64,000 nt of DNA from an uncultured Desulfovibrionaceae bacterium. Its GTDB lineage: Bacteria; Desulfobacterota; Desulfovibrionia; Desulfovibrionales; Desulfovibrionaceae. This document shows, in pieces, positions 397 to 12,839 of this stretch (the stretch's first letter is position 1; each line of letters starts with the position of its first letter). Position numbers and translations under genes: made by a program. The stretch lies in contig CAYJPT010000001.1 of the NCBI GenBank assembly GCA_964372165.1, positions 1,106 through 65,105 on the forward strand, written 5' to 3'. The notes beneath the pieces are model-generated. The model worked only from the letters and a program-made list of their open reading frames with translations, did not search any database and was not told where the DNA came from.

Positions 397-972
397 TTAT
401 TCTGACCACTCCTCAGGTGCTGGCACACTTGGCAAAGGAAGGTTGGCAGACATTTGCTGAGTATTTACTATGAAATTAAGTCTAAAAGACCATATACTAC
501 CTTCACGCTTGCGCACAAAATGAGAGGTTTTATAACGCAATTCTTTTTTCACCACACTCATAGGACCAAAAAAATTTCGCATAGTGCTAATGTCAGAAGC
601 TTTCCAGCGAAAAGCTCCAACACTCATTAATTGCTCCATAACTCTTAAAAATTGTTGTCCACCTTCATTATTTTGTCCGGTGTCAGTGAAGGTTACCTCA
701 GCTCCCGTAACCACAAGTTTATTCACATATATTGTGAGTAATACACTATGCCCATAGTCAACTACATAGCCTTGCTCACTTTTACGCGCATTGGTAAGAC
801 TTACAAATTTTGTTTCATACTTGCCCCAGAATCTTTGAAAAGATTCCCATAAAAATTGCGGAGGCTGCTGAATAGACTCTTGATTTTGACAAGCCATTAA
901 ACAAATACATATCATGAATGAGGAGAAAAACAATAATCTTTTTTTCACACTATCATCCCTTTGCTGTAGCAT
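397..972 (-). CDS. Hypothetical lipoprotein, last gene of the export block
   Basis: ORF 397..1029 trimmed to the internal ATG at 972 (MLQQRDDSVKKRLLFFSSFMICICLMAC). It has a basic n-region, a hydrophobic core and an LMAC lipobox-like cysteine. No recognisable catalytic motif. Confidence 0.5.
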   Translation of the reverse strand: MLQQRDDSVKKRLLFFSSFMICICLMACQNQESIQQPPQFLWESFQRFWGKYETKFVSLTNARKSEQGYVVDYGHSVLLTIYVNKLVVTGAEVTFTDTGQNNEGGQQFLRVMEQLMSVGAFRWKASDISTMRNFFGPMSVVKKELRYKTSHFVRKREGSIWSFRLNFIVNTQQMSANLPLPSVPAPEEWSE

Positions 973-2368
973 TTTCCCAAGGCGGAGGTGGGCGCCATAC
1001 CCACAATAAAGCAAGCAGTGGAACAACACCTATAATTTCTGCTATCAAACGCCCGACTATAGGCAGTAATATCCACCACAAACTAAAAGCCAAGGCTGGC
1101 ACACAGATAACAATTACCCACTGCAAGATACTTAGTGGTTTAGCCTTATATTGAAAATATGATACCGTGCAAATGGCTACCCAAACCTTGGTTAAAGTTA
1201 TAGCCAGTGCTGCCCCTTCTAAAGGCATCTTTTGTGTTAAATAAGTACACAATAAAATATTTATCCCCAAACCACTGGCATAAAATACTAAAAGCAATTT
1301 GTGTTTACGCATGCTTATCATTGCATACGCTGCAAGATTGTGCAAAAAAGCAGTTGCAATGCAGGGTGCTAAAATCCGCTGTGCGGTAACCGCAACATCA
1401 TAATTTGCACCATAAATAAAGGTCAAAATACGATCACTTTCCACACATATAACATAAATCAAAGGCATACAAGCAGCCCACAAACTACGTGCAGTTTGCC
1501 CTGTTAATTTTTGAAATGCTAGTTTATCTGTATCCCATAATTTAGCCATAACCGGAAAAACAACTTTTGCCAAAAGCGCACTTGATACCAATACAGAAAG
1601 ACCGTCAACAACCTCCCAAGCAACGCTATACGCACCAACTGCGGCATCTCCACCATATTTTTTTAGAAAAAATACATTTAACTTATTATAAAGAATAGCG
1701 CATGCGGCAATGCATGTAAAAACAATCCCTTGCTTCCATTTATTTGCTATTTGCCTCAAGTCAACAAGGCGTATTCCTATAAGTGGATTACGCCCCAGTG
1801 CCTTTAGAGAAATAGAAACAAGAAGTAATGATTCAAGTGGTTTATATAGAGCAATATAGATGGGAGGTGCATCAAAAAGCACTAAGGCTATACCAACACC
1901 GATACCAATAAGACTTGCAGGAACACGAATACGCATCTCTACATCTTGGCGCCCTCGTGCTTGGCACAAAGCAAAAAACGAATCGCTAAGAGCATCAATA
2001 CCAAGCCCTGCAGCAATCGACATAACTATAATGCGTAATTCTAAACTATAGCCTTGCCAAACAGTAAAAAACCACGTGCCTACTAAAGCTAAGCAAAGCA
2101 GCACAATTTTTAGCCATGTAATGGCTCCCAGCAATTGAAGCGGACGGTTTTCACGCCTAGCAAATGTTGAGATTAAAAAGTCATTAAGCCCAACATCAGC
2201 AATAAGGCGTACAATATACCCAAATGATAGAGCAAGCATAATCTGGCCAAGGACATCAGAGCTATGACGCGCTAGAATAATAGTGAACAATGTCCACGTA
2301 ACATCACGAGTCCACTGCGCACCTAGCACATATCCAAGCCGCTGTGGAATGCTTCTTAACTTGGCCAT
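953..2368 (-). CDS. MOP-superfamily flippase (Wzx / polysaccharide-biosynthesis-protein type)
   Basis: 471 aa, polytopic and hydrophobic throughout. Overall resemblance to oligosaccharide/lipid flippase family proteins. Overlaps or abuts its neighbours on the same strand. Confidence 0.7.
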   Translation of the reverse strand: MAKLRSIPQRLGYVLGAQWTRDVTWTLFTIILARHSSDVLGQIMLALSFGYIVRLIADVGLNDFLISTFARRENRPLQLLGAITWLKIVLLCLALVGTWFFTVWQGYSLELRIIVMSIAAGLGIDALSDSFFALCQARGRQDVEMRIRVPASLIGIGVGIALVLFDAPPIYIALYKPLESLLLVSISLKALGRNPLIGIRLVDLRQIANKWKQGIVFTCIAACAILYNKLNVFFLKKYGGDAAVGAYSVAWEVVDGLSVLVSSALLAKVVFPVMAKLWDTDKLAFQKLTGQTARSLWAACMPLIYVICVESDRILTFIYGANYDVAVTAQRILAPCIATAFLHNLAAYAMISMRKHKLLLVFYASGLGINILLCTYLTQKMPLEGAALAITLTKVWVAICTVSYFQYKAKPLSILQWVIVICVPALAFSLWWILLPIVGRLIAEIIGVVPLLALLWVWRPPPPWENATAKG

Positions 2369-2383
2369 GTAACCTGTATCAAT

Positions 2384-3436
2384 TTAAGATGCGTTTGGTT
2401 GTGCGCTTGGCTGTACAATCGGCTGCGCGTTCGATTCTCCCTGAGGATTTTGATTATCATCACTTGGAGCTTGCGCAGGCTCAGCCTTCGCATCATCTTT
2501 ATTTTCTTGTTTATTAGCATTTTTTACATTACGAGACATTGCCACTAAAACCTTAAAACCAGGCCTTAATTCAAAATCTGGATTAGGAATAGTAAATTCT
2601 ATTGTAAAATATGATGGTGCACCAATTTCTATGTTATTACTAGTCCAAGAAATATTGCTAACAGTAGCATCAATAACCTTATCATTTAAAGAAGGAATAG
2701 TAGCTTGGCCTATGTCACCAACCTTTATATCTTCCATATCGCCTTCATATACAAGGACATTAATTAGCATTGGATTCAAAGTTCCGATGGTAATGGGCTT
2801 TGCACCCTCTGCTAATTCTTTATTGGGAAACAATCCTGACGCTAGAGAAAGCACTCTACCATCCATAGGGGCTTTAAGTACTAAACTTTTAGGAAGGTCC
2901 ATACCTTCTTTAATGGTTACTCCAAAGTATTCACTCAATTCTTCAAGTCTTTGCTTAAAGTTTTTTTCTCTTTTTGCTACCGCACGTTTAAGTAATTTAA
3001 TACGTTGCCTTATGGAGTCAACATCTCCAGCTAAACGATCGGAAAGTTGATCTGGTCCAAGCCCACTTGATGACAATTTACGCGCCGTATTCCTATTATT
3101 AGTAAGTTCTACTAATTGCCTTTCCGTGGACAAAATATTAGCTCGGTCTTCTTCAGTATTAGCTCCAGTGGTTACTTCTTGTTGCAAGTTTCGTCTGGCA
3201 TCATCTGTAAGTGTGTATTTCATCAAAACTTGATCTTTCATAACACTTTGGCCAGGCTTAACTAAAACTTCTTCAACCACGGCTTCAAAAGGTAATGCAG
3301 TAGCACGTGTTACTTGGCTAACAACTTTGCCACTAAGTGAGGTAGTTACTGTGGCAGCATCTGCACTTTGCAGGCTTGTAAAAAATGAACAAAAAACACA
3401 TATCAGTGCTATGTTTTTTATTTTGTTAATAATCAT
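2384..3436 (-). CDS. HlyD-family membrane fusion (periplasmic adaptor) protein
   Basis: N-terminal signal/anchor (IALICVFCSFFTSLQSADA), a lipoyl-like hairpin (VEEVLVKPGQSVMKDQVLMKY), a long coiled-coil middle and a beta-barrel-like C-terminal part. Low-complexity Q/N/P/A tail. Confidence 0.75.
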   Translation of the reverse strand: MIINKIKNIALICVFCSFFTSLQSADAATVTTSLSGKVVSQVTRATALPFEAVVEEVLVKPGQSVMKDQVLMKYTLTDDARRNLQQEVTTGANTEEDRANILSTERQLVELTNNRNTARKLSSSGLGPDQLSDRLAGDVDSIRQRIKLLKRAVAKREKNFKQRLEELSEYFGVTIKEGMDLPKSLVLKAPMDGRVLSLASGLFPNKELAEGAKPITIGTLNPMLINVLVYEGDMEDIKVGDIGQATIPSLNDKVIDATVSNISWTSNNIEIGAPSYFTIEFTIPNPDFELRPGFKVLVAMSRNVKNANKQENKDDAKAEPAQAPSDDNQNPQGESNAQPIVQPSAQPNAS

Positions 3437-3437
3437 G

Positions 3438-4916
3438 CTAAAACTCCTCTGATGCTGGCAAACCTAAGAAACGTTCACTTAGCAGGCCAGCAACATCCAT
3501 CCACTTAATTCTTGCCATATCATAATCTAGCTCTACCATAATTAAACTAATACGTGCAGCAATAAGGTCTGCTTGTGCACTAGCTAACTCAGGGTACACT
3601 ACAACGCCGTCATTAAAGCTAATTTCTTTTTCTTTTAACAGCATTTCTGAAACTTTTAAGTTATTTTGGGCTATTTTAAGGCTATTTTCAGCCAATTTTA
3701 CCATCTGTTGCCCCTCTATCCATTCATGCGAAAACTCTGTACGAGCCTGAGCTTGCTCTTGAAATGCCTGAGCTTTTTCCATGCGTGCGGTCTGTACACC
3801 GCGATAACGCCTACCCCAATCTATAAGAGGAAATTGCAAATTCAAGTGTACAAATGTATCTTCTTGTCCATCAACAGGCTGATACTGTCCAGCAGGTGGA
3901 TTATTATCAACACGGATAGCTATATCTGGAATGTACTCTGCCCACGCTAACATTATGCCAAGATCCATCAAAGCAATTTGTCCGCGCAGTAAAAGTGCGT
4001 CTTCACTGCGATTCCAGTGTTCTTCCCAATGTAATTGTTCTCCGTCAAAACCTTGAAGAATATTTTTTGCATCGGTAGTATCAACATTAAATTTATGCTC
4101 TAACTCCACACCAACTATACTCTTCAACTTAGTGCGCAGCATTAAATCTTCAATCTTATTACGCTCAAGTTCGAGTTGTCTTTCACGCTCTTGTTGTATT
4201 GCTATGTTAAGAGATGCACCTTGTTTGCCCTCCACAGCTTCTAATTGCTGCCAATATTCGATTAATTTTTTGGCTATAGGCAAAAGTTGCTCTTGTAATG
4301 CAATAGTTTTTCTTTTTGCCTCAAGCTGCTGATACATACCAGCAATATTTAAAATAGCTTCAGCAATCGCTTTGCGATGTGTGGACAAAGCAATATCAAT
4401 CATCATAGCTTTTGATTTGTGATTAAAATATGTTGAGACAGGATTTGGGAAACTCATATTAAAAGCTACCCGCATCTTTGTTTTAGCATAGTCTGCCGGC
4501 AAGTCTTCAAGTCCAGTATTTAGAGCTGTAATATTATTTGAAATGTCTAAAGATATAGTTGGCTCTGGTAAATATTGCCAAACTGCATCAACAAGCTTGA
4601 GCTTACTCATCTCAATAGATACGGCTGAGTTAGCTAGTAATGGAGATTGCTGTATTGCCAAATACACGCTATCATCAAAGGAAAATGCTTTGTCAGAATT
4701 ATATAGGTTTGGCATTGAAGCTTCTAGCTTTGCTTTATGCTCAACAGGCACTCCTGGAGCAGACTCAAGCCAGTGTCGTGCTGGCAATTCAGGCGCACTC
4801 ATACCAGCTTTTTGTGATGCGCAACCTCCAAGGAAAGCTATCATCATAAATAAACATATGATATTTTTTGAAAGATATAACCTCTGCCCCACAAACCAAC
4901 CACTAAATTTAAACAT
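3438..4916 (-). CDS. TolC-family outer membrane efflux protein
   Basis: 492 aa with a lipoprotein-like signal (FLGGCAS) and two long helical repeats typical of outer membrane factors. The stop is 1-2 nt from the adaptor gene start. Confidence 0.75.
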   Translation of the reverse strand: MFKFSGWFVGQRLYLSKNIICLFMMIAFLGGCASQKAGMSAPELPARHWLESAPGVPVEHKAKLEASMPNLYNSDKAFSFDDSVYLAIQQSPLLANSAVSIEMSKLKLVDAVWQYLPEPTISLDISNNITALNTGLEDLPADYAKTKMRVAFNMSFPNPVSTYFNHKSKAMMIDIALSTHRKAIAEAILNIAGMYQQLEAKRKTIALQEQLLPIAKKLIEYWQQLEAVEGKQGASLNIAIQQERERQLELERNKIEDLMLRTKLKSIVGVELEHKFNVDTTDAKNILQGFDGEQLHWEEHWNRSEDALLLRGQIALMDLGIMLAWAEYIPDIAIRVDNNPPAGQYQPVDGQEDTFVHLNLQFPLIDWGRRYRGVQTARMEKAQAFQEQAQARTEFSHEWIEGQQMVKLAENSLKIAQNNLKVSEMLLKEKEISFNDGVVVYPELASAQADLIAARISLIMVELDYDMARIKWMDVAGLLSERFLGLPASEEF

Positions 4917-4925
4917 TTTTTTACC

Positions 4926-7900
4926 TCATGACACAACAGAAAGCATACGTAAACCTTGCAATACGAGCAAAACCTTACCATTTACCTCAACTATTTGCGC
5001 ATTAATTAATTTTTCCAAGCCTGAACCTTGTAATTGCCAATCTATATGAGCAATGTCATAATTTTGCATAGCAGACACGTGGCTAAAATGTAAGATATCA
5101 ACTATTTGGTAATTTTCGTATGTTGGCAAAGCCAACTTTTGTATCAACCCAATGCTTGCGATTTGCAAGTTATAGTACAAATCATGCTGTTCTGCAATGT
5201 TTTTTATTGAAAATATATGCTCATGAATATTTTTTTTATCTAATAATTCCTGCCTATTATCTCCCCATAAAGGAATTATACTTTCCTCTTCATTACTTAG
5301 GTAAATTTTTCCTTTAGCGTAGCATTGTTTCTCTTGTAAACGCCGTCCATTTTCAGAAATTGCATAAATCTCAAGCGATGATTGGCATGGCAAAACCAAA
5401 CCTTGGCCTGCATTTGTCCATTGCTCAGCTTCTATTATCGCTTCACCCTCGCGCGTGATACCATCTGGACATTTAAATGCACTTTCAAAATGTAAATCAC
5501 TAGCTCCACTACATTGCAACCAAGTAAAACCCATACGTGCTGCACTATATAATGTATCTAACATAAAAAGAGGTGACACTTCGGGGGCAGATGTTTTTTG
5601 ACTAGCCAAAAAACCATCTGCATAAACAGAAAAATTACGACGTGCAATAAAATTTGTCTGGCTATCTAACTTCATTTGCTTAGGGTATAAATGTGGAAAG
5701 TTATGCATATCTTCAGCAAGACCAGCTTTTGCCACTGCTGTGGGGCTTGCATCTGGCATAAGGGTTGGCACTTGCGGAAATGATTTATGCCAAATAACAT
5801 TGTTCTCAGTACCACATAAAAGCTCACGAGCAAAAAGCATTGGCAATACATCATAATCAAGTAAACCTACGCCCAGCGCAGTAAATACACTTTGTAAACC
5901 CTCATTAGATAGCATACCCACATTACCATTTACAGGTGCTAACCATAGGCAACGCCAAAACAAATCATGCTTTGTACAAAACTGCTCCAATAAGGCAGCC
6001 ATAGCTCGATTAGCTGCAGCATAATTAGCTTGTCCTATATTACCACACCAGGCAGCAAGCGATGATATACCCACAGCATAGCGCAAACCATACTTAACCG
6101 ATTCTTGCAAAAGGTTTTCTAAGCCATCATATTTAACGGCCATTACCTGCGATATTTGCCTTGTGCTCAATTCACTCAACGGTACATCTTCATTTATACC
6201 AGCTCCATGTATTAAGCCATGTATTTCACCCCAAGTTTCAAAAATGCTTGCCAGCGTTGTTTGTACTTGTTTTTTATCACTCACATCACAGGCGTAATAA
6301 ACACATTTTGCCCCAAAACCTGCCAGTTTTTCTATAACTTGTTGAGAAGGCGCAGCACTACGCCCTAATAGCAACAAGGTGCATTCAAGCATGGCTAAGC
6401 CCTCTAAAGCCTTTGGAGTAATGCCACGCCCTCCACCTGAAACTATAATTACTTGCCCTTTGCTAATGGGTAAGCCAAATCTACCAGCAGCCCAAGGTTT
6501 TTGCTTTAAGCGAAGCGATCCCATGTAGCTTGAGTTTAAACATGAGTACAAAGGAAATTCACTATGCGTGCATAATATTTTTTGCATAAAGCCTTGCATT
6601 GCGCCATTACTTAAACCTTGCTTAGTGTGTATGGCTCTAAAATGACGCTGTGGATATTCCTGCGCTGCCGTCAAGAGTAATGCATTTAAGCTTGCAAAAA
6701 GATTTGAACCAAGTAGCGATGTTGTCAATTCTTCATGTACTATACACATTTGCCCTTTTTCACTACGCAAAAATGCCTGTACAAGACTCATGTATTCTAT
6801 AATAGGTGAAGAATCTTTATAGGATAAAATTTCATCTAGATATGGCAAAGCTATGACAATCAGACCTGGTTTCAAGTCTTGCTCAAGCGTTGCTTGTGCG
6901 TGAAGTATATCCTCAACCCTTAATACTTGCTCACTGCCAAAGGTTTGCGTCAAAAATTCATACCATTGTTGAGCATAGTCATTTTTCCCAACTATCACAG
7001 CCGGTAAAAATTCTTTTTTATCACTAAGCAATTGTGCATTCCACTCCTCACCTGGCATTACAAAAGGGCATTTTTCAATAACACTACGTACAATGGGATG
7101 AGTGGTAATAGGCTTTTCTATGGTAGGTTGTTCATCACTTGTTGAATCTATATTTAATGAACGCGCATTAGCCACAACCTTTGCTAAATCTGCAATAGTG
7201 GCAACATCTATAAAATCCTCAAAGTTGACCTTAACATTAAATGTCTTTTCAATTTCATTAATAACTACAGGAAAACGACTTGAACGCATAGCAAGGTCAT
7301 AACGCAAATCCATGTGTGCAGACAATTGGTGCGACTCAAAACCTGTTACTCGTACCAAAAGCGGTATAATGTCTTCTACATAATTGGCAGTGTTTTCAGT
7401 TTTTGTTTCAAGACATTTTGCGTCGCTTTGATCTTTTGCAATTTTTTTTCGCTTTGGTACAAAATTATCCGGAACAACATAAGTACTTGGGCCTTTAATA
7501 TGCCCAAGAGAATAAAGCTCAGCCACAGCCCTGCGCATGGCTTCAACTTCTTTACCTTTACGTCCAACGGAAATACGATGCGCTGTAGGTTGTATTTCTG
7601 AAATAAGCCGACTTAAAGTTGCAGTTGGACCAAGCTCCACAAAATGGCGAACAGAATAATCATTATATACTCTATTAACACAATCCACCCAGCGTACCGG
7701 GCTTTCATCAAGGTCAGCTATATATTCGCATATACTTTCTTTATCGTTTGGATATAAATCTGCAGTAACATTGCTTAACACTGGTGTATGTCCAGCTTGA
7801 ATAGTAAATTCCATCAAACTATCAATGGATATTTTGCGAATAGTACGCAAACCAGGATGATGGAAAGCCATACTAATATTAAGCAGGCCTACCATAATTT

Positions 7901-8762
7901 TTTGCTCTTTTAATTTAGCGCAGGCTTTTTCTAAATCGCTTCGTGTTCCACTTAAAATGTACTGCGTAGGGCTATTATAACTTGAAACATAAAAATTTGG
8001 AAAATCCTCTAAAACCTGCTTGATTACATCATAAGGAGCATGAACAGCCATCATACCACTATCGTGATTACCCTCTTGCTCCATATCATCTATAATTTTT
8101 GAATGCTTATTGATGATACCCCACGCATCTTCAGGCGAATATACTCCCGCTAGGCATAAGGCAATAAGCTCTCCTAAACTATGCCCAACAACAATATCCG
8201 CTTTATATCCTAGTGTCTCAAGGTAGTATGCTTGGGCATATGAAACGAAAAAAATATACGGAGCTTGCCAGCGTGTGCGCATAAGCTTTTTTTTATCGGT
8301 TTCATCAAGTAAGGCTAAAATATCCCAATCTGAAACAGCAGCAATGCGCTCCATGGCTGCTCTAACAGCAGGAATATTATCATAAAGTTCACGCCCCATA
8401 TGAGCAAAAACGCTGCCTTGCCCTCCGGTAATAGTAGCAATTCTAGGCTTATCTTGCTTTTTTTCCAGCCATATACCCTGCTTGCGCAAATCCTTTAAAG
8501 TAGCATTATCTGGATTTTTTCCAATGTTAGTTATATAATTACGCCATGATGGTGTTATAGAGCCAATTCGCCATAATTCACCTGCATGACTAAGGCTAAT
8601 TAAGCGAACACCATTTTCTACGTGTTGACTTTCTATGAAGTTTTCTTGTTCCTGTCCTGCACCCATAGATACGGCATTAGTACTTTCCAATTCAATGCTC
8701 CCACATAAAAGCCAATAATATGGCTTTTCAATATAAACTATATTAATTAACACATAAAACAA
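4926..8762 (-). CDS. KS-less PKS-like multidomain protein: acyltransferase - ACP-like - ketoreductase, plus unassigned N- and C-terminal regions
   Basis: AT motifs GGQGSV, GHSLGE (nt 8172-8186) and MAFHHP. ACP-like four-helix region around nt 7271-7315. SDR/KR motifs GGGRGIT (about nt 6421-6450) and YAAAN (about nt 6004-6032). No CHH ketosynthase motifs anywhere. The track start is a non-ATG codon; the true start may be the ATG at 8666. Confidence 0.85.
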   Translation of the reverse strand: MFYVLINIVYIEKPYYWLLCGSIELESTNAVSMGAGQEQENFIESQHVENGVRLISLSHAGELWRIGSITPSWRNYITNIGKNPDNATLKDLRKQGIWLEKKQDKPRIATITGGQGSVFAHMGRELYDNIPAVRAAMERIAAVSDWDILALLDETDKKKLMRTRWQAPYIFFVSYAQAYYLETLGYKADIVVGHSLGELIALCLAGVYSPEDAWGIINKHSKIIDDMEQEGNHDSGMMAVHAPYDVIKQVLEDFPNFYVSSYNSPTQYILSGTRSDLEKACAKLKEQKIMVGLLNISMAFHHPGLRTIRKISIDSLMEFTIQAGHTPVLSNVTADLYPNDKESICEYIADLDESPVRWVDCVNRVYNDYSVRHFVELGPTATLSRLISEIQPTAHRISVGRKGKEVEAMRRAVAELYSLGHIKGPSTYVVPDNFVPKRKKIAKDQSDAKCLETKTENTANYVEDIIPLLVRVTGFESHQLSAHMDLRYDLAMRSSRFPVVINEIEKTFNVKVNFEDFIDVATIADLAKVVANARSLNIDSTSDEQPTIEKPITTHPIVRSVIEKCPFVMPGEEWNAQLLSDKKEFLPAVIVGKNDYAQQWYEFLTQTFGSEQVLRVEDILHAQATLEQDLKPGLIVIALPYLDEILSYKDSSPIIEYMSLVQAFLRSEKGQMCIVHEELTTSLLGSNLFASLNALLLTAAQEYPQRHFRAIHTKQGLSNGAMQGFMQKILCTHSEFPLYSCLNSSYMGSLRLKQKPWAAGRFGLPISKGQVIIVSGGGRGITPKALEGLAMLECTLLLLGRSAAPSQQVIEKLAGFGAKCVYYACDVSDKKQVQTTLASIFETWGEIHGLIHGAGINEDVPLSELSTRQISQVMAVKYDGLENLLQESVKYGLRYAVGISSLAAWCGNIGQANYAAANRAMAALLEQFCTKHDLFWRCLWLAPVNGNVGMLSNEGLQSVFTALGVGLLDYDVLPMLFARELLCGTENNVIWHKSFPQVPTLMPDASPTAVAKAGLAEDMHNFPHLYPKQMKLDSQTNFIARRNFSVYADGFLASQKTSAPEVSPLFMLDTLYSAARMGFTWLQCSGASDLHFESAFKCPDGITREGEAIIEAEQWTNAGQGLVLPCQSSLEIYAISENGRRLQEKQCYAKGKIYLSNEEESIIPLWGDNRQELLDKKNIHEHIFSIKNIAEQHDLYYNLQIASIGLIQKLALPTYENYQIVDILHFSHVSAMQNYDIAHIDWQLQGSGLEKLINAQIVEVNGKVLLVLQGLRMLSVVS

Positions 8763-8766
8763 GATT

Positions 8767-8950
8767 CAGCACAATTAATTGGCACAGACTGATGACAAAC
8801 CCCCTTTCAGGCGTTTGTGCCGCCTAAGGCAGACAAGCTGCCTTGGCAGTAAGGCACGAAAATCATTCGTTTAACGGCGCAAATGAATTGCGCCTACTCT
8901 TGATTTATCGGCTCGTGCTGACTTTGTCAGCACTCTGAGCACAATTAATT
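8767..8950. repeat. Structured ~156-nt module flanked by an exact 14-bp direct repeat (AGCACAATTAATTG) and splitting a palindrome
   Basis: Direct repeats at 8767-8780 and 8937-8950. The second lies in the perfect 16-bp palindrome GCACAATTAATTGTGC (8938-8953). The interior carries at least four hairpins, for example AAGGCAG-ACAAG-CTGCCTT at 8825-8843. Its core is homologous to 16709-16794. Confidence 0.6.
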
Positions 8951-9346
8951 GTGCAGTAGTCTTAAAATATTCAATAAAAGACCACAAAGACAGAAAAAAT
9001 ATTTTTCACAACATAACAATTCAAACTATACTCAAAAAAATACATATCATATCAAATTCTTATGTGGAATAAAATTACAACTCCAAATTAATTCGCAAAA
9101 TGAGCACAGTATAGCATTATTACTTCCTACATTAGAAGTAACATGCTCATCAAAGCTGCAAGGTCTTTGATTTATAAATTATAGGACATTTTATCACACT
9201 TGTCTATCAAGGCATAGGTTTGCCCAAAACCAAGTTAATATATATTCTTGCCAAAAAGAAAAGTTTGTTGTAAGCATCTTCATTCACGTGCTACATGATA
9301 ACATTGTCAATACAAGCACCATATAAAACTTTGGGAGATAGATGGC

Positions 9347-10645
9347 ATGAATAAAGAGCAAGAATTGAACACCATGTCCGATGAGCAAATAGAAAAAAGT
9401 GATTCTTCGTTGGAGTTCAATTATGTGCACAAAAAACTTTCCGTTGGTCGAGCTGTGGCCATGGGAAAAAAAATGGGTATTCGCAACCCACTATTTTTGT
9501 GCCACGATAAAGCTGCCAAAGCTTATACCACCATTGAGGGCAAAGAATACCTCAATTTTTCTACCTATGATTACCTAGACATTAATACACATCCTGAAAT
9601 AACCGCCGCTGTTACTAAAGCTGCAGAAAAATACGGAACTTCTGCCGGTGCAAGCCGCCTTGTTGGTGGGGAGCGCCCACCACATTTAGAGCTTGAACGC
9701 GCCATTGCAGATTTTTATGAAGTTGATGATAGCATTGTTTACGTAAGTGGCCATGCAACCAATGTTTCAACATTGGGTTTTCTCTTCACCTCGCGCGATT
9801 TAATATTGCATGATAATCTTGCACATAACTCCTTAATGCAAGGAGCTAAGCTTTCATCTGCAACGCGCATGTCTTATACGCATGATAACACCGACGCTTT
9901 AGAAGCTATATTAAAACAACGCCGTAATGACTTTCGCCATGTAATAATTGTAACTGAAGGCCTTTTTAGCATGGACGGCAATATACCTGATTTACCACGC
10001 ATCGTTGAACTAAAAAAACAATATAATTGTATGCTACTTGTAGACGAAGCACACTCATTAGGTATACTTGGTGCAACAGGGCGTGGTGCACGTGAGCATT
10101 TTAATATTGACCCCAATGATGTTGACATGTGGATGAGCACCCTTAGTAAATCACTGTGTGGTTGCGGGGGTTTTATTGCCGGCAATAAAAAACTTATTGA
10201 AAACTTAAAGTATGGCTCTCCAGGCTTTGTTTTTAGCGTAGGAATGTCACCTATACTTGCTGTTGCATGCAAAACAGCTCTTGACATAATACAACGTGAA
10301 CCAGAGCGTGTACACAAATTACAACATATTAGTAAGTATTTTCTTGACTATGCCAAAAGCCTCAACCTTGATACTGGTGTTGCACAAGGATATGCCAATG
10401 TTCCAATAATCGTTGGTAATTCTATGGTGACAGGCGTTGTATCCAACGCACTATTAAACCGTGGTATTTACGTTATGCCTATTACTTTCCCGGCAGTGCA
10501 GGAAGGTACAGCAAGACTTCGTTTCTTCTTATCAGCTGCACATTCTGAAGCTGATGTACGAAGAGCACTTGATATTACAGCAGAAGAATTACCAAAGGCT
10601 GCAAAAACCATTGAAGAATGGATTGCAAACAACCCACAAGATTAA
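9347..10645 (+). CDS. PLP-dependent alpha-oxoamine synthase family enzyme (BioF / serine palmitoyltransferase / CqsA class)
   Basis: 432 aa with a class-II aminotransferase fold. VDEAHS and the PLP-lysine motif STLSKSL (about nt 10136-10160). SD-like GGGAGA precedes the ATG. Confidence 0.85.
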   Translation: MNKEQELNTMSDEQIEKSDSSLEFNYVHKKLSVGRAVAMGKKMGIRNPLFLCHDKAAKAYTTIEGKEYLNFSTYDYLDINTHPEITAAVTKAAEKYGTSAGASRLVGGERPPHLELERAIADFYEVDDSIVYVSGHATNVSTLGFLFTSRDLILHDNLAHNSLMQGAKLSSATRMSYTHDNTDALEAILKQRRNDFRHVIIVTEGLFSMDGNIPDLPRIVELKKQYNCMLLVDEAHSLGILGATGRGAREHFNIDPNDVDMWMSTLSKSLCGCGGFIAGNKKLIENLKYGSPGFVFSVGMSPILAVACKTALDIIQREPERVHKLQHISKYFLDYAKSLNLDTGVAQGYANVPIIVGNSMVTGVVSNALLNRGIYVMPITFPAVQEGTARLRFFLSAAHSEADVRRALDITAEELPKAAKTIEEWIANNPQD

Positions 10646-10834
10646 GTATTCACTTTAACAAGATAATTTTCACACTTTGTGCTATGCACTTAATGAATAT
10701 TATTTATTAGTGAACATTTTTTAGTAAAAAAATACTGCGCATCGTTATATTATGTTTCTTTTTGTCAAACAATGTACAGGCAAAAAGCTAGTGAAACATT
10801 CAAAAATTACAGTATAAAATACAAATTTATGACA

Positions 10835-10876
10835 ATTGAAGACCTCTGCGCAATCTATTGTGCAGAGGTCTTCAAT
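10835..10876. repeat. 20-bp-stem palindromic hairpin of the CTCTGCACAAT / ATTGTGCAGAG repeat family
   Basis: TTGAAGACCTCTGCGCAAT-CT-ATTGTGCAGAGGTCTTCAA has one G-T pair and no U-tract. The same arm sequence bounds the elements at 16626-16828 and 53110-53194. Confidence 0.6.
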
Positions 10877-10919
10877 CTTAAAAATACAAATATGTCATTG
10901 GGCATAATATGGAGTTACT

Positions 10920-12839
10920 ATGTGTGGCATAGCAGGTTTTTATCAACTTGATGGGCAAAATTTACCGCATGAAGCCTCTACATGGCTAAAAAATATGACA
11001 GACGCCATAAACTATCGTGGCCCAGACGGTGAGGGACAATGGATTGATGGTGCTGTTGCTCTAGGGCATAGGCGCCTTTCTATAATTGACCTAAAAACTG
11101 GTGCGCAGCCTATGTCAGATGCCTCTGACCAAGTATGGGTTACCTTCAATGGTGAAATATATAATTTTCCAGCACTACGTGAAGAATTAAAAGCACGCGG
11201 TTGCACCTTTCGCACAAACTCAGATACAGAAGTTATACTATATGCTTGGCAAGAATGGGGTAAGGATTGTGTGCAGCATTTTGAAGGCATGTTTGCCTTT
11301 GTCTTATATGATAAAAGACAAAAAATCCTTTTTTGCGCTAGGGATCGTTTTGGGAAAAAACCTTTCTATTACACGATTCAACAGGGTCGCTTTATTTTTG
11401 CCTCAGAACTTACAGCTATAAAATGCTTTCCAAACTTGAGCTTAAGTGTAAAGCCACAATCTCTTATGCGTTATTTAGCATATGAGTATGCGCCAACACC
11501 TGAGTGCATTTATACCGAAGTGCAAAAACTGCCTCCTTCACACAGCCTCATGCTATGTGAAGGAAAAACAACACTGTCGCGCTATTGGGAAATACCAACG
11601 CCGCTTGAAAATGTCACAGTTTCTGAAGATGACCTTGCAAGTGAGCTTTGCCACCTGCTAGACAAAGCTGTGGAGCGGCGCATGATAAGTGATGTGCCAC
11701 TTGGTGTTTTTCTATCCGGTGGTATTGATTCTTCAATAATCACAGCCCTAATGGCTGGCAAAGCTGATAAAATAAAAACATTTTCCATAGGGTTTAAAGA
11801 AGCAAGCTATGATGAGTCACAATATGCGCGCATTATTGCAAACCACTATACAACCGACCATTGCGAGCACATACTATCCGCCGATTATTGCGCAGAAATT
11901 TTGCCAGATGTTATAAGTCGTCTTGATGAGCCTATGGCTGACGCATCTGTTGCGCCAACATATTTATTATCAGAGCTTACCCGAAAGCATGTTACTGTGG
12001 CCCTTGGCGGTGACGGATCAGATGAATTATTTGCAGGCTATGAACATTTTATTGGCTTAAAAGTTGCTGAACATTACAACAAATGGCCTTCATTGTTGCG
12101 TAAAGGAATTGAAGGTATTTCATCAAGTTTACCTGCCAGTTCAAACTATATTAACTTAAACAATGCATTATCTACTTTTCTGGGTGCAGCTTATGCTCCA
12201 CCATGGCAAAGAGTACAAAGCTTGCTCACAGCCTTTACCCCTGAAATGCAACAAGATATTTGGAATAAAAATTTTATCAAGGATAACCATGATTTTTTAG
12301 CTTTAGATTCACTTTTTGCACCTACTAAGGAACATTTTTCCCACTGGCCAACCTCCAGCGCAGTGGGCAATGTAGAAAGAGCTGCTTATGTTTATGCACG
12401 ACAATTTCTTGTCGATGATATTTTAACTAAAGTGGATCGCTGCTCAATGTTGAAATCGCTTGAAGTGCGAGCACCATTTTTAGATACACAAGTGGCAGAA
12501 TTTGCAGCTAGACTACCACTACAGTATAAACTTAAAGGATTTAAAAGAAAATACTTACTTAAAAAAGCTTGTTCTGGGCTTTTACCCAAGGAAATTCTTA
12601 ATCGCAATAAGCGCGGATTTCAGATTCCAGTGGCCGCATGGTTACGAGGTTCCTTACGCCCCATGGTAGAAGAGTTATTAGGGGAACGCTTTTTGCAAGA
12701 ACAAGGTGTATTTAGTGTACCACACATTAAATCACTGGTAGATACGCACATGAGTGGCAAAAAAGATTTACGCAAGCCCCTTTGGACTTTGCTTGTGCTA
12801 CAAATGTGGTGGAGGGCAAACAAGCCAAAAATTTTATAA
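10920..12839 (+). CDS. Asparagine synthase (glutamine-hydrolysing) family amidotransferase, probable pathway-specific paralog
   Basis: N-terminal MCGIAG (Ntn Cys2), the SGGIDSS PP-loop, 639 aa. Confidence 0.9.
   Translation: MCGIAGFYQLDGQNLPHEASTWLKNMTDAINYRGPDGEGQWIDGAVALGHRRLSIIDLKTGAQPMSDASDQVWVTFNGEIYNFPALREELKARGCTFRTNSDTEVILYAWQEWGKDCVQHFEGMFAFVLYDKRQKILFCARDRFGKKPFYYTIQQGRFIFASELTAIKCFPNLSLSVKPQSLMRYLAYEYAPTPECIYTEVQKLPPSHSLMLCEGKTTLSRYWEIPTPLENVTVSEDDLASELCHLLDKAVERRMISDVPLGVFLSGGIDSSIITALMAGKADKIKTFSIGFKEASYDESQYARIIANHYTTDHCEHILSADYCAEILPDVISRLDEPMADASVAPTYLLSELTRKHVTVALGGDGSDELFAGYEHFIGLKVAEHYNKWPSLLRKGIEGISSSLPASSNYINLNNALSTFLGAAYAPPWQRVQSLLTAFTPEMQQDIWNKNFIKDNHDFLALDSLFAPTKEHFSHWPTSSAVGNVERAAYVYARQFLVDDILTKVDRCSMLKSLEVRAPFLDTQVAEFAARLPLQYKLKGFKRKYLLKKACSGLLPKEILNRNKRGFQIPVAAWLRGSLRPMVEELLGERFLQEQGVFSVPHIKSLVDTHMSGKKDLRKPLWTLLVLQMWWRANKPKIL

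What the first reader, a model, noticed from the sequence alone, without database searches (positions are those of the whole stretch)
9347..10645. Alpha-oxoamine synthase as the sole condensing enzyme; amino-acid and acyl substrates unknown
The protein has the PLP lysine (STLSKSL) and the fold motifs of the BioF/SPT/CqsA family. It is not next to biotin genes (bioA/D/C/H), a CqsS-type sensor or recognisable ceramide synthase/reductase genes. Its context is an ACP-containing megaprotein and an amidotransferase. That context points to a sphingoid-like, capnine-like or autoinducer-like amino-ketone product that has not been assigned.
Basis: partly seen in the sequence, partly recalled or inferred. 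Interest (0 to 1): 0.6.

Follow-up and report, generated by a model that had tools for sequence, protein, structure and literature searches.

The report
SgaB/RkpG-type sphingoid-base synthase gene
This is an intact gene for an enzyme that joins an amino acid (most likely serine) to a carrier-bound fatty chain to start a sphingolipid-like lipid; its enzyme group was characterised in 2025, but in this gut-type Desulfovibrio relative its usual polyketide-synthase partner lacks the chain-building domain, so the product is unknown.

Summary
ORF 9347-10645 (+) encodes a 432-aa alpha-oxoamine synthase (AOS) with a good ribosome-binding site and a complete catalytic set (H160, D233, H236, K268 in STLSKSL, R392). 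It is the only AOS in a 97%-complete genome. It is not an ordinary BioF, KBL, CqsA or canonical SPT, because it reaches no NCBIfam equivalog cut-off.

In a maximum-likelihood tree it falls in a 100/100-supported clade. That clade holds Sinorhizobium RkpG (46% identity) and PfSgaB of Pseudomonas fluorescens MYb115 (50% identity). PfSgaB was shown in 2025 to be an L-serine-specific enzyme that takes chains from an iterative PKS and yields very-long-chain sphinganines. In 8 relatives the ortholog directly follows a KS-AT-DH-ER-KR-ACP synthase, and in two of them it lies inside a KpsS/KpsC capsule cluster.

In this window, and in Desulfovibrio legallii and gut or rumen MAGs, the partner is a ketosynthase-less AT-ACP(-KR) protein. 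It sits beside a MOP flippase, an MFP and a TolC-like channel.

My best reading is serine plus an ACP-bound acyl chain giving a 3-keto-sphingoid base for an exported surface lipid. The chemistry is inferred, not shown. The genome keeps bioB and bioDA but has no bioF, bioG or bioC, so a BioF role cannot be fully excluded. Earlier agents in this scan found rkp/sga-type modules on other DNA.

The parts
9347..10645 (+). SgaB/RkpG-type alpha-oxoamine synthase (432 aa). PLP lysine is K268. Catalytic residues are H160, E204, S208, D233, H236, T265 and R392. Clade signature residues are Y74, E109-R110-P111, N161, W262, C273, V298-G299, E386 and F393-F394.
9333..9338 (+). Shine-Dalgarno-like GGGAGA, 8 nt upstream of the ATG
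   Evidence: read directly from the sequence
8763..9346 (.). 585-bp divergent intergenic region shared with the AT-ACP-KR gene. Earlier notes of this scan place a small mobile insert at 8767-8950.
   Evidence: consensus promoter-like matches only
4926..8762 (-). 1278-aa ketosynthase-less AT(113-389)-ACP(465-529)-KR(770-928) protein, the presumed carrier of the acyl substrate. The AT has GHSLGE and MAFH motifs but His in place of the malonyl-binding Arg. The carrier motif is DLx[LM]RSS. The KR shows GGGRG and YAAAN motifs.
3438..4916 (-). TolC-like outer-membrane factor (OEP), same operon as the carrier protein
2384..3436 (-). HlyD-type membrane-fusion protein
953..2368 (-). 471-aa membrane protein. 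Its 61%-identical ortholog in G041 matches the Polysacc_synt/Polysacc_synt_3 (MOP flippase) families.
10920..12839 (+). AsnB-type glutamine amidotransferase. It is the last gene of the AOS operon in relatives and one of three paralogs in this genome.

Best explanation
The gene encodes a PLP-dependent alpha-oxoamine synthase of the SgaB/RkpG (WcbT) clade. These are SPT-like enzymes that take an acyl chain from the carrier domain of a type I synthase rather than from acyl-CoA. They release the chain by decarboxylative Claisen condensation with an amino acid. By homology to PfSgaB, the amino acid is most likely L-serine and the product a 3-keto-dihydrosphingoid base. In this genome the acyl donor would be the ACP domain of the divergently transcribed AT-ACP-KR protein, which has no ketosynthase. 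Its KR domain, which is intact here, may reduce the 3-keto group, as the SgaC/RkpH reductases are proposed to do. The resulting amino-lipid would then be handled by the co-operonic MOP flippase, membrane-fusion protein and TolC-like channel. In relatives it would also be modified by two GT4 glycosyltransferases and an AsnB-type amidotransferase, giving a surface or exported (glyco)aminolipid. Shown here: gene integrity, catalytic and signature residues, clade membership, conserved synteny. Inferred: every chemical step, the identity of both substrates, and the export route.
For: (1) Clade membership. The window AOS lies in a 100/100 (UFboot/SH-aLRT) clade with a stem of 1.27 substitutions per site. 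The clade holds Sinorhizobium RkpG, Microbulbifer, Burkholderia sp., Igneacidithiobacillus and PfSgaB. Identity to PfSgaB is 49.9% over 373 aa, and to RkpG 45.9%.

(2) PfSgaB biochemistry. PfSgaB condenses L-serine with C16-C20 acyl thioesters and shows virtually exclusive preference for serine over alanine and glycine. sgaAB yields C24-C28 sphinganines (PMC12134224).

(3) Signature residues. Twelve or more residues set this clade apart from BioF, KBL and SPT, and the window and PfSgaB share them: Y74 in place of a near-invariant Asn, [E/D]109-R110-P111, N161, W262, C273, V298-G299, E386 and F393-F394.

(4) Synteny. Every ortholog whose flanks could be read lies next to an ACP-bearing synthase. 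In 8 loci it directly follows a KS-AT-DH-ER-KR-ACP PKS (G034, G040, G027, G059, G015, G031, Igneacidithiobacillus, Burkholderia sp.). The same order is seen in Microbulbifer and Sinorhizobium. About 9 loci carry the KS-less AT-ACP form instead.

(5) rkp-1 collinearity. The G031 cluster is collinear with rkpU-rkpA-rkpG-rkpH-rkpI. In G027 and G040, KpsS-like and KpsC-like genes flank the pair.

(6) Independence from biotin. Six of the 10 sampled Desulfovibrionaceae genomes that carry this AOS type have no true BioA, and G041 has a separate bioF-bioG-bioC cluster.
Against: There is no biochemical or expression evidence for this gene or for any KS-less cassette. The acyl donor is unclear, because without a ketosynthase the neighbour cannot build a chain. 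Its AT is FabD-like (147 bits to fabD), and in orthologs it keeps the Arg typical of malonyl selection. The carrier motif is atypical: RSS instead of DSL. A PKS-type KR normally acts on ACP-bound substrates, and the KR is degenerate in orthologs. This window also lacks the GT and 349-aa genes that follow the AOS in relatives. The genome lacks RkpH/I/J, KpsS/C and Wza homologs. The deep position of the clade is unresolved: sister to SPT at only 91/75, and an AU test does not reject joining it with BioF-type rows (p = 0.37). About 50% identity does not guarantee the same amino-acid specificity.
Confidence: 0.6

Rival explanations
1. Short-chain chemistry. The FabD-like AT loads malonyl (or another short dicarboxyl unit) onto the carrier. 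The AOS condenses it with an amino acid to a gamma-amino-beta-keto acid. The KR reduces this to a gamma-amino-beta-hydroxy acid, whose free carboxylate is then amidated or ligated by the AsnB-type enzyme, for example as a decoration of a surface glycan.
For: The cassette has no ketosynthase. The AT carries GHSLGE and xAFH motifs and scores 147 bits to fabD, and orthologs keep the malonyl-binding Arg. An AsnB-type enzyme, which needs a carboxylate substrate, is conserved at the end of the AOS operon. The KS-less subclade of the AOS has gained conserved basic residues at positions 28 and 30.
Against: The AOS keeps all the signature residues of the long-chain, serine-using PfSgaB. Only 15 columns distinguish the KS-less-partnered subclade from the PKS-partnered one. 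The position aligned with E. coli BioF R21 is Leu or Phe. In this window the AT Arg is itself replaced by His. I know of no AOS that uses malonyl thioesters.
Confidence: 0.15
2. It is, or doubles as, the genome's BioF (8-amino-7-oxononanoate synthase), feeding the bioB-bioDA genes found elsewhere.
For: It is the only AOS in a 97%-complete genome that has bioB and a fused bioD-bioA. Its best NCBIfam hit is bioF, at 343 bits. The AU test does not reject a tree that joins the clade with BioF-type rows. G047 and G059 show the same pattern.
Against: The score is below the bioF cut-off of 426 bits. It lies in a separate 100/100 clade with a serine-specific enzyme. Six of the 10 carriers of this AOS type have no BioA. 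The sister genus G041 has both this AOS and a bioF-bioG-bioC cluster. G000 also lacks bioG and bioC, which points to loss of the whole early pathway. Six other BioA-positive family genomes have no AOS at all, so a missing bioF is common in this family. The gene is never bio-linked.
Confidence: 0.08
3. It is a decaying remnant. The cassette in this lineage is being lost and the AOS no longer has a physiological substrate.
For: The GT and 349-aa genes present after the AOS in all close relatives are absent here. The AT has an Arg-to-His change at a conserved position. Repeat elements sit in both flanking spacers.
Against: The frame is intact and has a ribosome-binding site. All catalytic and signature residues are kept. 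Identity to the same-genus ortholog is 74-78% with no stops. The carrier, OMF, MFP and flippase genes are all intact.
Confidence: 0.07

Closest known systems
PfSgaB of Pseudomonas fluorescens MYb115 (with the iterative PKS PfSgaA and the KDSR-like PfSgaC; Peters et al. 2025, PMC12134224)
   Same: Same 100/100 clade, 49.9% identity, and shared catalytic and clade-signature residues. The enzyme is adjacent to an ACP-bearing type I synthase.
   Different: PfSgaB follows a complete KS-AT-DH-ER-KR-ACP iterative PKS. Here the partner has no KS, DH or ER, is transcribed divergently, and is tied to MOP flippase, MFP and OMF genes. No SgaC-type SDR is in the locus. The product here is untested.
RkpG of the Sinorhizobium rkp-1 region (rkpU, rkpA, G, H, I, J), and the homologous wcb capsule clusters of Burkholderia (WcbR PKS; that WcbT is the AOS is from my memory)
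   Same: Same clade, 45.9% identity to the Sinorhizobium ortholog, whose locus is collinear with the published rkp-1 gene order. [quoted passage not shown]
   Different: No RkpA-type PKS, RkpH, RkpI, RkpJ/KpsS, KpsC or Wza homolog was found in this genome. The export genes here are of a different type.
Bacterial serine palmitoyltransferase (Sphingobacterium multivorum 3A2B, Sphingomonas 2JG2/2X8U)
   Same: Same fold and catalytic residues. 212 bits to 3A2B. The clade is weakly sister to SPT in the tree (91/75).
   Different: About 31% identity. All three NCBIfam SPT cut-offs are missed: 292 of 640, 237 of 500 and 187 of 670 bits. The near-invariant Asn is replaced by Tyr74 and the HAS motif reads HNS. 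Canonical SPT-like genes form a separate clade in 11 other Desulfovibrionaceae genomes.
Thermus thermophilus BioF/KBL dual AOS (7POA) and E. coli BioF and Kbl
   Same: Best solved-structure sequence match (223 bits). Shared AOS chemistry.
   Different: The bioF and KBL equivalog cut-offs are missed. The clades are separate. There is no bio or tdh linkage.
Fungal PKS-offloading AOS enzymes (Fum8 of fumonisin, SphA of sphingofungin; 9PEP)
   Same: Same logic: an AOS releases a synthase-bound chain by condensing it with an amino acid.
   Different: Distant in sequence (93 bits to 9PEP), and eukaryotic secondary metabolism.

Membership tests
Alpha-oxoamine synthase family (fold-type I PLP enzymes) | Aminotran_1_2 fold with the PLP lysine and the His/Asp/His/Arg catalytic set | tested here: met
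   Pfam E 5e-46. K268, H160, D233, H236 and R392 align with E. coli BioF K236, H133, D204, H207 and R361.
SgaB/RkpG (WcbT) clade of synthase-partnered AOS | Monophyly with PfSgaB and RkpG | tested here: met
   100/100 clade of 20 rows, stem 1.27. 49.9% identity to PfSgaB and 45.9% to RkpG.
SgaB/RkpG (WcbT) clade of synthase-partnered AOS | Shared signature residues around the active site | tested here: met
   Y74, E/D109-R110-P111, N161, W262, C273, V298-G299, E386 and F393-F394 are shared with PfSgaB and RkpG and are rare in the BioF, KBL and SPT rows.
SgaB/RkpG (WcbT) clade of synthase-partnered AOS | Adjacent complete iterative type I PKS (KS-AT-DH-ER-KR-ACP) | tested here: not met
   The neighbour is AT-ACP-KR without KS, DH or ER, and is transcribed divergently. 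A full PKS is present in G015, G027, G031, G034, G040 and G059.
SgaB/RkpG (WcbT) clade of synthase-partnered AOS | L-serine specificity and a long-chain base product | not testable with these tools
   Shown only for PfSgaB (PMC12134224). Inferred here by homology.
rkp-1 / wcb capsule lipid module | Presence of RkpH SDR, RkpI (sulfatase family), RkpJ/KpsS, KpsC and a Wza-type exporter | tested here: not met
   No Capsule_synth match in G000. tblastn finds no RkpI, RkpJ or RkpU homolog, and only a generic SDR at 32% identity.
BioF (8-amino-7-oxononanoate synthase, TIGR00858) | Score above the curated equivalog cut-off | tested here: not met
   343 bits against a cut-off of 426.
BioF (8-amino-7-oxononanoate synthase, TIGR00858) | Placement within bio-linked sequences, or linkage to bio genes | tested here: not met
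   No bio-linked row lies inside the clade. bioB and bioDA lie on another contig. An AU test on the clade's deep position is inconclusive (p = 0.37).
Serine palmitoyltransferase equivalogs (NF047600, NF047599, NF047603) | Score above the curated cut-offs | tested here: not met
   292 of 640, 237 of 500 and 187 of 670 bits.
KBL (glycine C-acetyltransferase) | Equivalog cut-off and tdh linkage | tested here: not met
   302 of 460 and 257 of 493 bits. The true KBL of G034 scores 697 bits and groups with E. coli Kbl.
CqsA/LqsA autoinducer synthase | Equivalog cut-off and an adjacent CqsS-type sensor | tested here: not met
   164 of 428 bits and 89 bits to CqsA structures. No sensor kinase is in the locus.
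Cysteate acyltransferase (CapB/SulA, sulfonolipid) | Closer to the solved CapB and SulA chains than to other AOS enzymes | tested here: not met
   171 and 175 bits to 28EH and 7U7H, against 212-223 bits to SPT and ThAOS and 373-378 bits to RkpG and PfSgaB. These two were not placed in the tree.

The most novel reading that the evidence does not exclude
Gut and rumen Desulfovibrionaceae, including human-gut Desulfovibrio legallii, use an SgaB-type serine-condensing enzyme with a ketosynthase-less AT-ACP carrier protein to make a previously unseen sphingoid-base-derived (glyco)aminolipid. The lipid is exported through an unusual MOP flippase / membrane-fusion protein / TolC-like route. This would be a second, independent rewiring of the PKS-sphingolipid pathway, in a phylum not known to make sphingolipids.
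Probability: 0.35. Interest if true: 0.7.

Novelty: new variant of a known kind. Interest (0 to 1): 0.5.

Why it matters
Sphingolipids from gut bacteria, so far known mainly from Bacteroidota, influence host lipid metabolism and immunity. The PKS-dependent route to bacterial sphingoid bases was demonstrated only in 2025. The enzyme in this window belongs to that clade. It also marks a conserved, unstudied cassette in gut and rumen Desulfovibrionaceae in which the chain-building synthase is replaced by a bare loading and carrier protein and coupled to an export system. If the cassette is active, it would add sulfate-reducing gut bacteria to the producers of sphingoid-type lipids. It would also give a compact system (AT-ACP-KR plus AOS) for studying how an SPT-type enzyme takes its substrate from a carrier domain. 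If instead the AOS stands in for the missing BioF, it would explain how several Desulfovibrionaceae keep bioB and bioDA without bioF.

Tried and rejected
- **Curated AOS families.** None of the NCBIfam equivalogs (bioF, KBL, three SPT models, ALAS, CqsA) is reached.
- **Ordinary BioF.** Rejected on clade, synteny, co-occurrence with a true bioF-bioG-bioC in G041, and presence in six BioA-less genomes. The AU test could not reject a deep join with BioF-type rows (p = 0.37), so phylogeny alone does not settle it.
- **Literature.** Searches for Desulfovibrio together with PKS, SPT or AOS found nothing relevant. The two key rkp papers (Kiss 1997, PMC178947; Muller 2009, PMC2772494) are not held, so what I say about RkpG being called an 'acyltransferase' is from memory.
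- **Source names.** The names given for rhizobial RkpG orthologs are only generic.
- **Unassigned parts of the 1278-aa protein.** Pfam scans of residues 1-112, 530-770 and 931-1278 found nothing.
- **Tree references.** CqsA and CapB/SulA were compared only by PDB bit scores and were not placed in the tree.
- **PfSgaB sequence.** It came from machine-read supplementary text and shows two apparent dropped residues. It was used only for local BLAST, alignment and the tree.
- **Tools.** I ran no structure prediction, because it would not separate AOS subfamilies.

Full report
**1. The observation**

ORF 9347-10645 (+) is 432 aa with an ATG start. A GGGAGA box lies 8 nt upstream of the ATG.

The protein matches Pfam Aminotran_1_2 at E 5e-46. 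Aligned with E. coli BioF, it keeps every catalytic residue:
- H160, E204, S208, D233, H236, T265 and R392
- K268, the PLP lysine inside STLSKSL

- A divergent 1278-aa AT-ACP-KR protein at 4926-8762 (-). It is followed on the same strand by a TolC-like OMF, a HlyD-type MFP and a 471-aa membrane protein. The G041 ortholog of that last protein is a MOP-type flippase.
- Downstream of the AOS, an AsnB-type amidotransferase and a small beta-barrel OMP.

No ketosynthase domain occurs in the locus.

**2. Not a member of any curated AOS family**

NCBIfam scores, with cut-offs in brackets: bioF 343 (426), KBL 302 (460), SPT-CFB 292 (640), ALAS 222 (339), CqsA 164 (428).

Among solved structures, the best matches are the Thermus BioF/KBL enzyme (223 bits) and the S. 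multivorum SPT (212 bits). The cysteate acyltransferases (171-175 bits) and CqsA (89 bits) score lower.

**3. The biotin question**

The assembly is 2.5 Mb, 255 contigs and 97.3% complete. This is its only AOS homolog. The genome carries bioB, a fused bioD-bioA and a sodium/solute symporter on contig C19, with no bioF.

The absence of a second AOS is not good evidence for a BioF role, for four reasons:
- In a sample of 61 Desulfovibrionaceae genomes, ten carry this AOS type at 51-77% identity. Six of those ten have no BioA above the cut-off.
- The sister genus G041 has this AOS at 69% identity and also a separate bioF-bioG-bioC cluster.
- G000 has no bioG or bioC either, so the early pathway seems to have been lost as a block.
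- Six other BioA-positive genomes in the family have no AOS at all.

**4. What the clade is**

*Synteny in the family.* In G034, G040, G027, G059, G015 and G031 the ortholog directly follows a 2516-2585-aa protein. In G031 this protein reads KS-AT-DH-ER-KR-ACP. It is preceded by a Wza-like gene and followed by GNAT, SDR and sulfatase-family genes.

*Relatives outside the family.* A tblastn of plasmid records found a 52%-identical gene in Microbulbifer. It lies after a PKS and beside an SDR, a Wza-like gene, an ABC-transporter pair (permease and ATP-binding protein) and two Capsule_synth genes. A 46%-identical gene turned up in Sinorhizobium sp. C101.

*The Sinorhizobium locus.* It reads Wza-like / PKS / AOS / SDR / sulfatase-family / Capsule_synth. 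This is the published order rkpU / rkpA / rkpG / rkpH / rkpI / rkpJ of the rkp-1 region (PMC7902896). [quoted passage not shown] The G031 proteins match it gene for gene.

*Capsule context in the family.* In G027 and G040, KpsS-like and KpsC-like genes flank the PKS-AOS pair.

*More loci.* A scan of reference genomes added Igneacidithiobacillus and an environmental Burkholderia sp., both at 48% identity and both following a PKS.

**5. The 2025 biochemistry**

A note from an earlier agent of this scan pointed me to Peters et al. 2025 (PMC12134224). I read the paper. Its main findings:
- PfSgaA, an iterative type I PKS, and PfSgaB, an AOS, make C24-C28 sphinganines and phosphoglycerol sphingolipids in P. 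fluorescens MYb115.
- Purified PfSgaB forms the serine external aldimine and condenses L-serine with C16-C20 acyl-CoA. It shows virtually exclusive preference for serine over alanine and glycine.
- An adjacent KDSR-like SDR (SgaC) is proposed to reduce the keto group.
- Their census of sgaAB-like pairs is dominated by Burkholderia. It also lists Sinorhizobium (241) and Desulfovibrio (17).

**6. Phylogeny**

I built a maximum-likelihood tree of 63 AOS sequences (IQ-TREE, LG+C20+F+G4). The rows were:
- all AOS paralogs from the family sample
- E. coli BioF and Kbl
- plasmid-borne BioF, Kbl and HemA that lie next to bio or tdh genes or are named by their annotators
- three solved structures
- RkpG orthologs and PfSgaB

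The window AOS falls in a 100/100 clade of 20 rows, with a stem of 1.27, together with RkpG and PfSgaB (one search gives the same result without PfSgaB). Identity to PfSgaB is 49.9% over 373 aa.

The bio-linked sequences, the KBLs and a canonical SPT-like group form other clades. The SPT-like group holds S. multivorum SPT, S. wittichii SPT and 11 Desulfovibrionaceae genes.

The deep position of the clade is not resolved. It is sister to SPT at 91/75. An AU test does not reject joining it with the BioF-type rows (p = 0.37).

**7. Active-site signature**

The SgaB/RkpG clade differs from BioF, KBL and SPT at conserved positions:
- Tyr74 replaces a near-invariant Asn (E. coli BioF N47).
- [E/D]109-R110-P111 lies in the loop after GxSR.
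- Asn161 follows the catalytic His.
- W262, C273, V298-G299, E386 and F393-F394 are also clade-specific.

The window enzyme and the serine-specific PfSgaB share all of these. That is the basis for proposing serine here. It is an inference from homology.

**8. The unusual partner**

In G000, G041, D. legallii (human-gut contigs) and six gut or rumen MAGs, the PKS is replaced by a 1000-1465-aa AT-ACP protein. It is transcribed divergently from the AOS, and OMF and MFP genes follow it wherever the contig reaches far enough. A MOP flippase was confirmed next in G000, G041 and D. legallii. The AOS operon continues with a GT4, a 330-370-aa protein of unknown family, a second GT and AsnB.

This window lacks the GT and unknown genes.

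Features of the window's carrier protein:
- The AT has GHSLGE and MAFH motifs. It carries His where FabD, RkpA and its own orthologs have the Arg that binds the malonyl carboxylate.
- The carrier motif across this protein family is DLx[LM]RSS rather than DSL.
- The KR motifs GGGRG and YAAAN are intact only in the window protein and are degenerate in the orthologs.

How a chain reaches the carrier without a ketosynthase is the main open point. It motivates the short-chain rival.

**9. Verdict**

The gene is real and intact. It is a member of the SgaB/RkpG clade and not an ordinary biotin gene. The family is known: genetically since the 1990s and biochemically since 2025. The ketosynthase-less, flippase/MFP/OMF-linked cassette is an unstudied variant.

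I rate it a new variant of a known kind, with interest 0.5. My confidence in the serine plus carrier-bound-acyl mechanism is 0.6.

Noticed in passing
G000 contig C19:18440-22916 (locus L008 9441-13917): bioB, a fused bioD-bioA and a sodium/solute symporter sit together. The genome has no bioF, bioG or bioC. Six other BioA-positive Desulfovibrionaceae genomes (G024, G038, G044, G053, G054, G060) have no AOS homolog at all, so the KAPA-forming step is unaccounted for in part of this family.
   Followed up: partly
L039 5403-14847 (G027) and L038 1629-11545 (G040): A second AOS clade, found in 11 of the 61 sampled Desulfovibrionaceae genomes, is strongly SPT-like (337 bits to S. multivorum SPT; 420 bits to NF047600, below its cut-off). 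In G027 it lies beside a MacB-type ABC transporter, an OMF, an MFP and a MOP flippase, and G040 shows OMF and MFP in the same order. This suggests canonical-type sphingolipid synthesis and export in this family.
   Followed up: partly
window 10646-10919: In D. legallii and six MAG relatives the AOS is followed by a GT4, a conserved 330-370-aa protein with no Pfam match, and a second GT before AsnB. Here only a 274-bp spacer remains. Earlier notes place a 20-bp-stem palindrome at 10835-10876, which suggests a deletion.
   Followed up: partly
window 4926-8762 (-), protein residues 193-230 and 770-930: The window's AT domain has His in place of the conserved malonyl-binding Arg that its orthologs retain. 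Conversely, its KR keeps the GGGRG and YAAAN motifs that are degenerate in the orthologs.
   Followed up: partly
L035 12700-14238 (G031) and L041 16068-17744 (Sinorhizobium RkpI): RkpI-type proteins belong to the sulfatase/LtaS superfamily. Peters et al. report sphinganines carrying +154 Da (phosphoglycerol). An RkpI-type enzyme could be the glycerophosphate transferase, making a phosphoglycerol-sphinganine analogue of the lyso-phosphatidylglycerol acceptor used by KpsS/KpsC. This is an idea only.
   Followed up: no
G000 contigs C152:559-2400 and C74:3830-5701: Two further AsnB-type paralogs (37% and 35% identity to the window copy) exist, so the cassette copy need not be the housekeeping asparagine synthase.
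   Followed up: no
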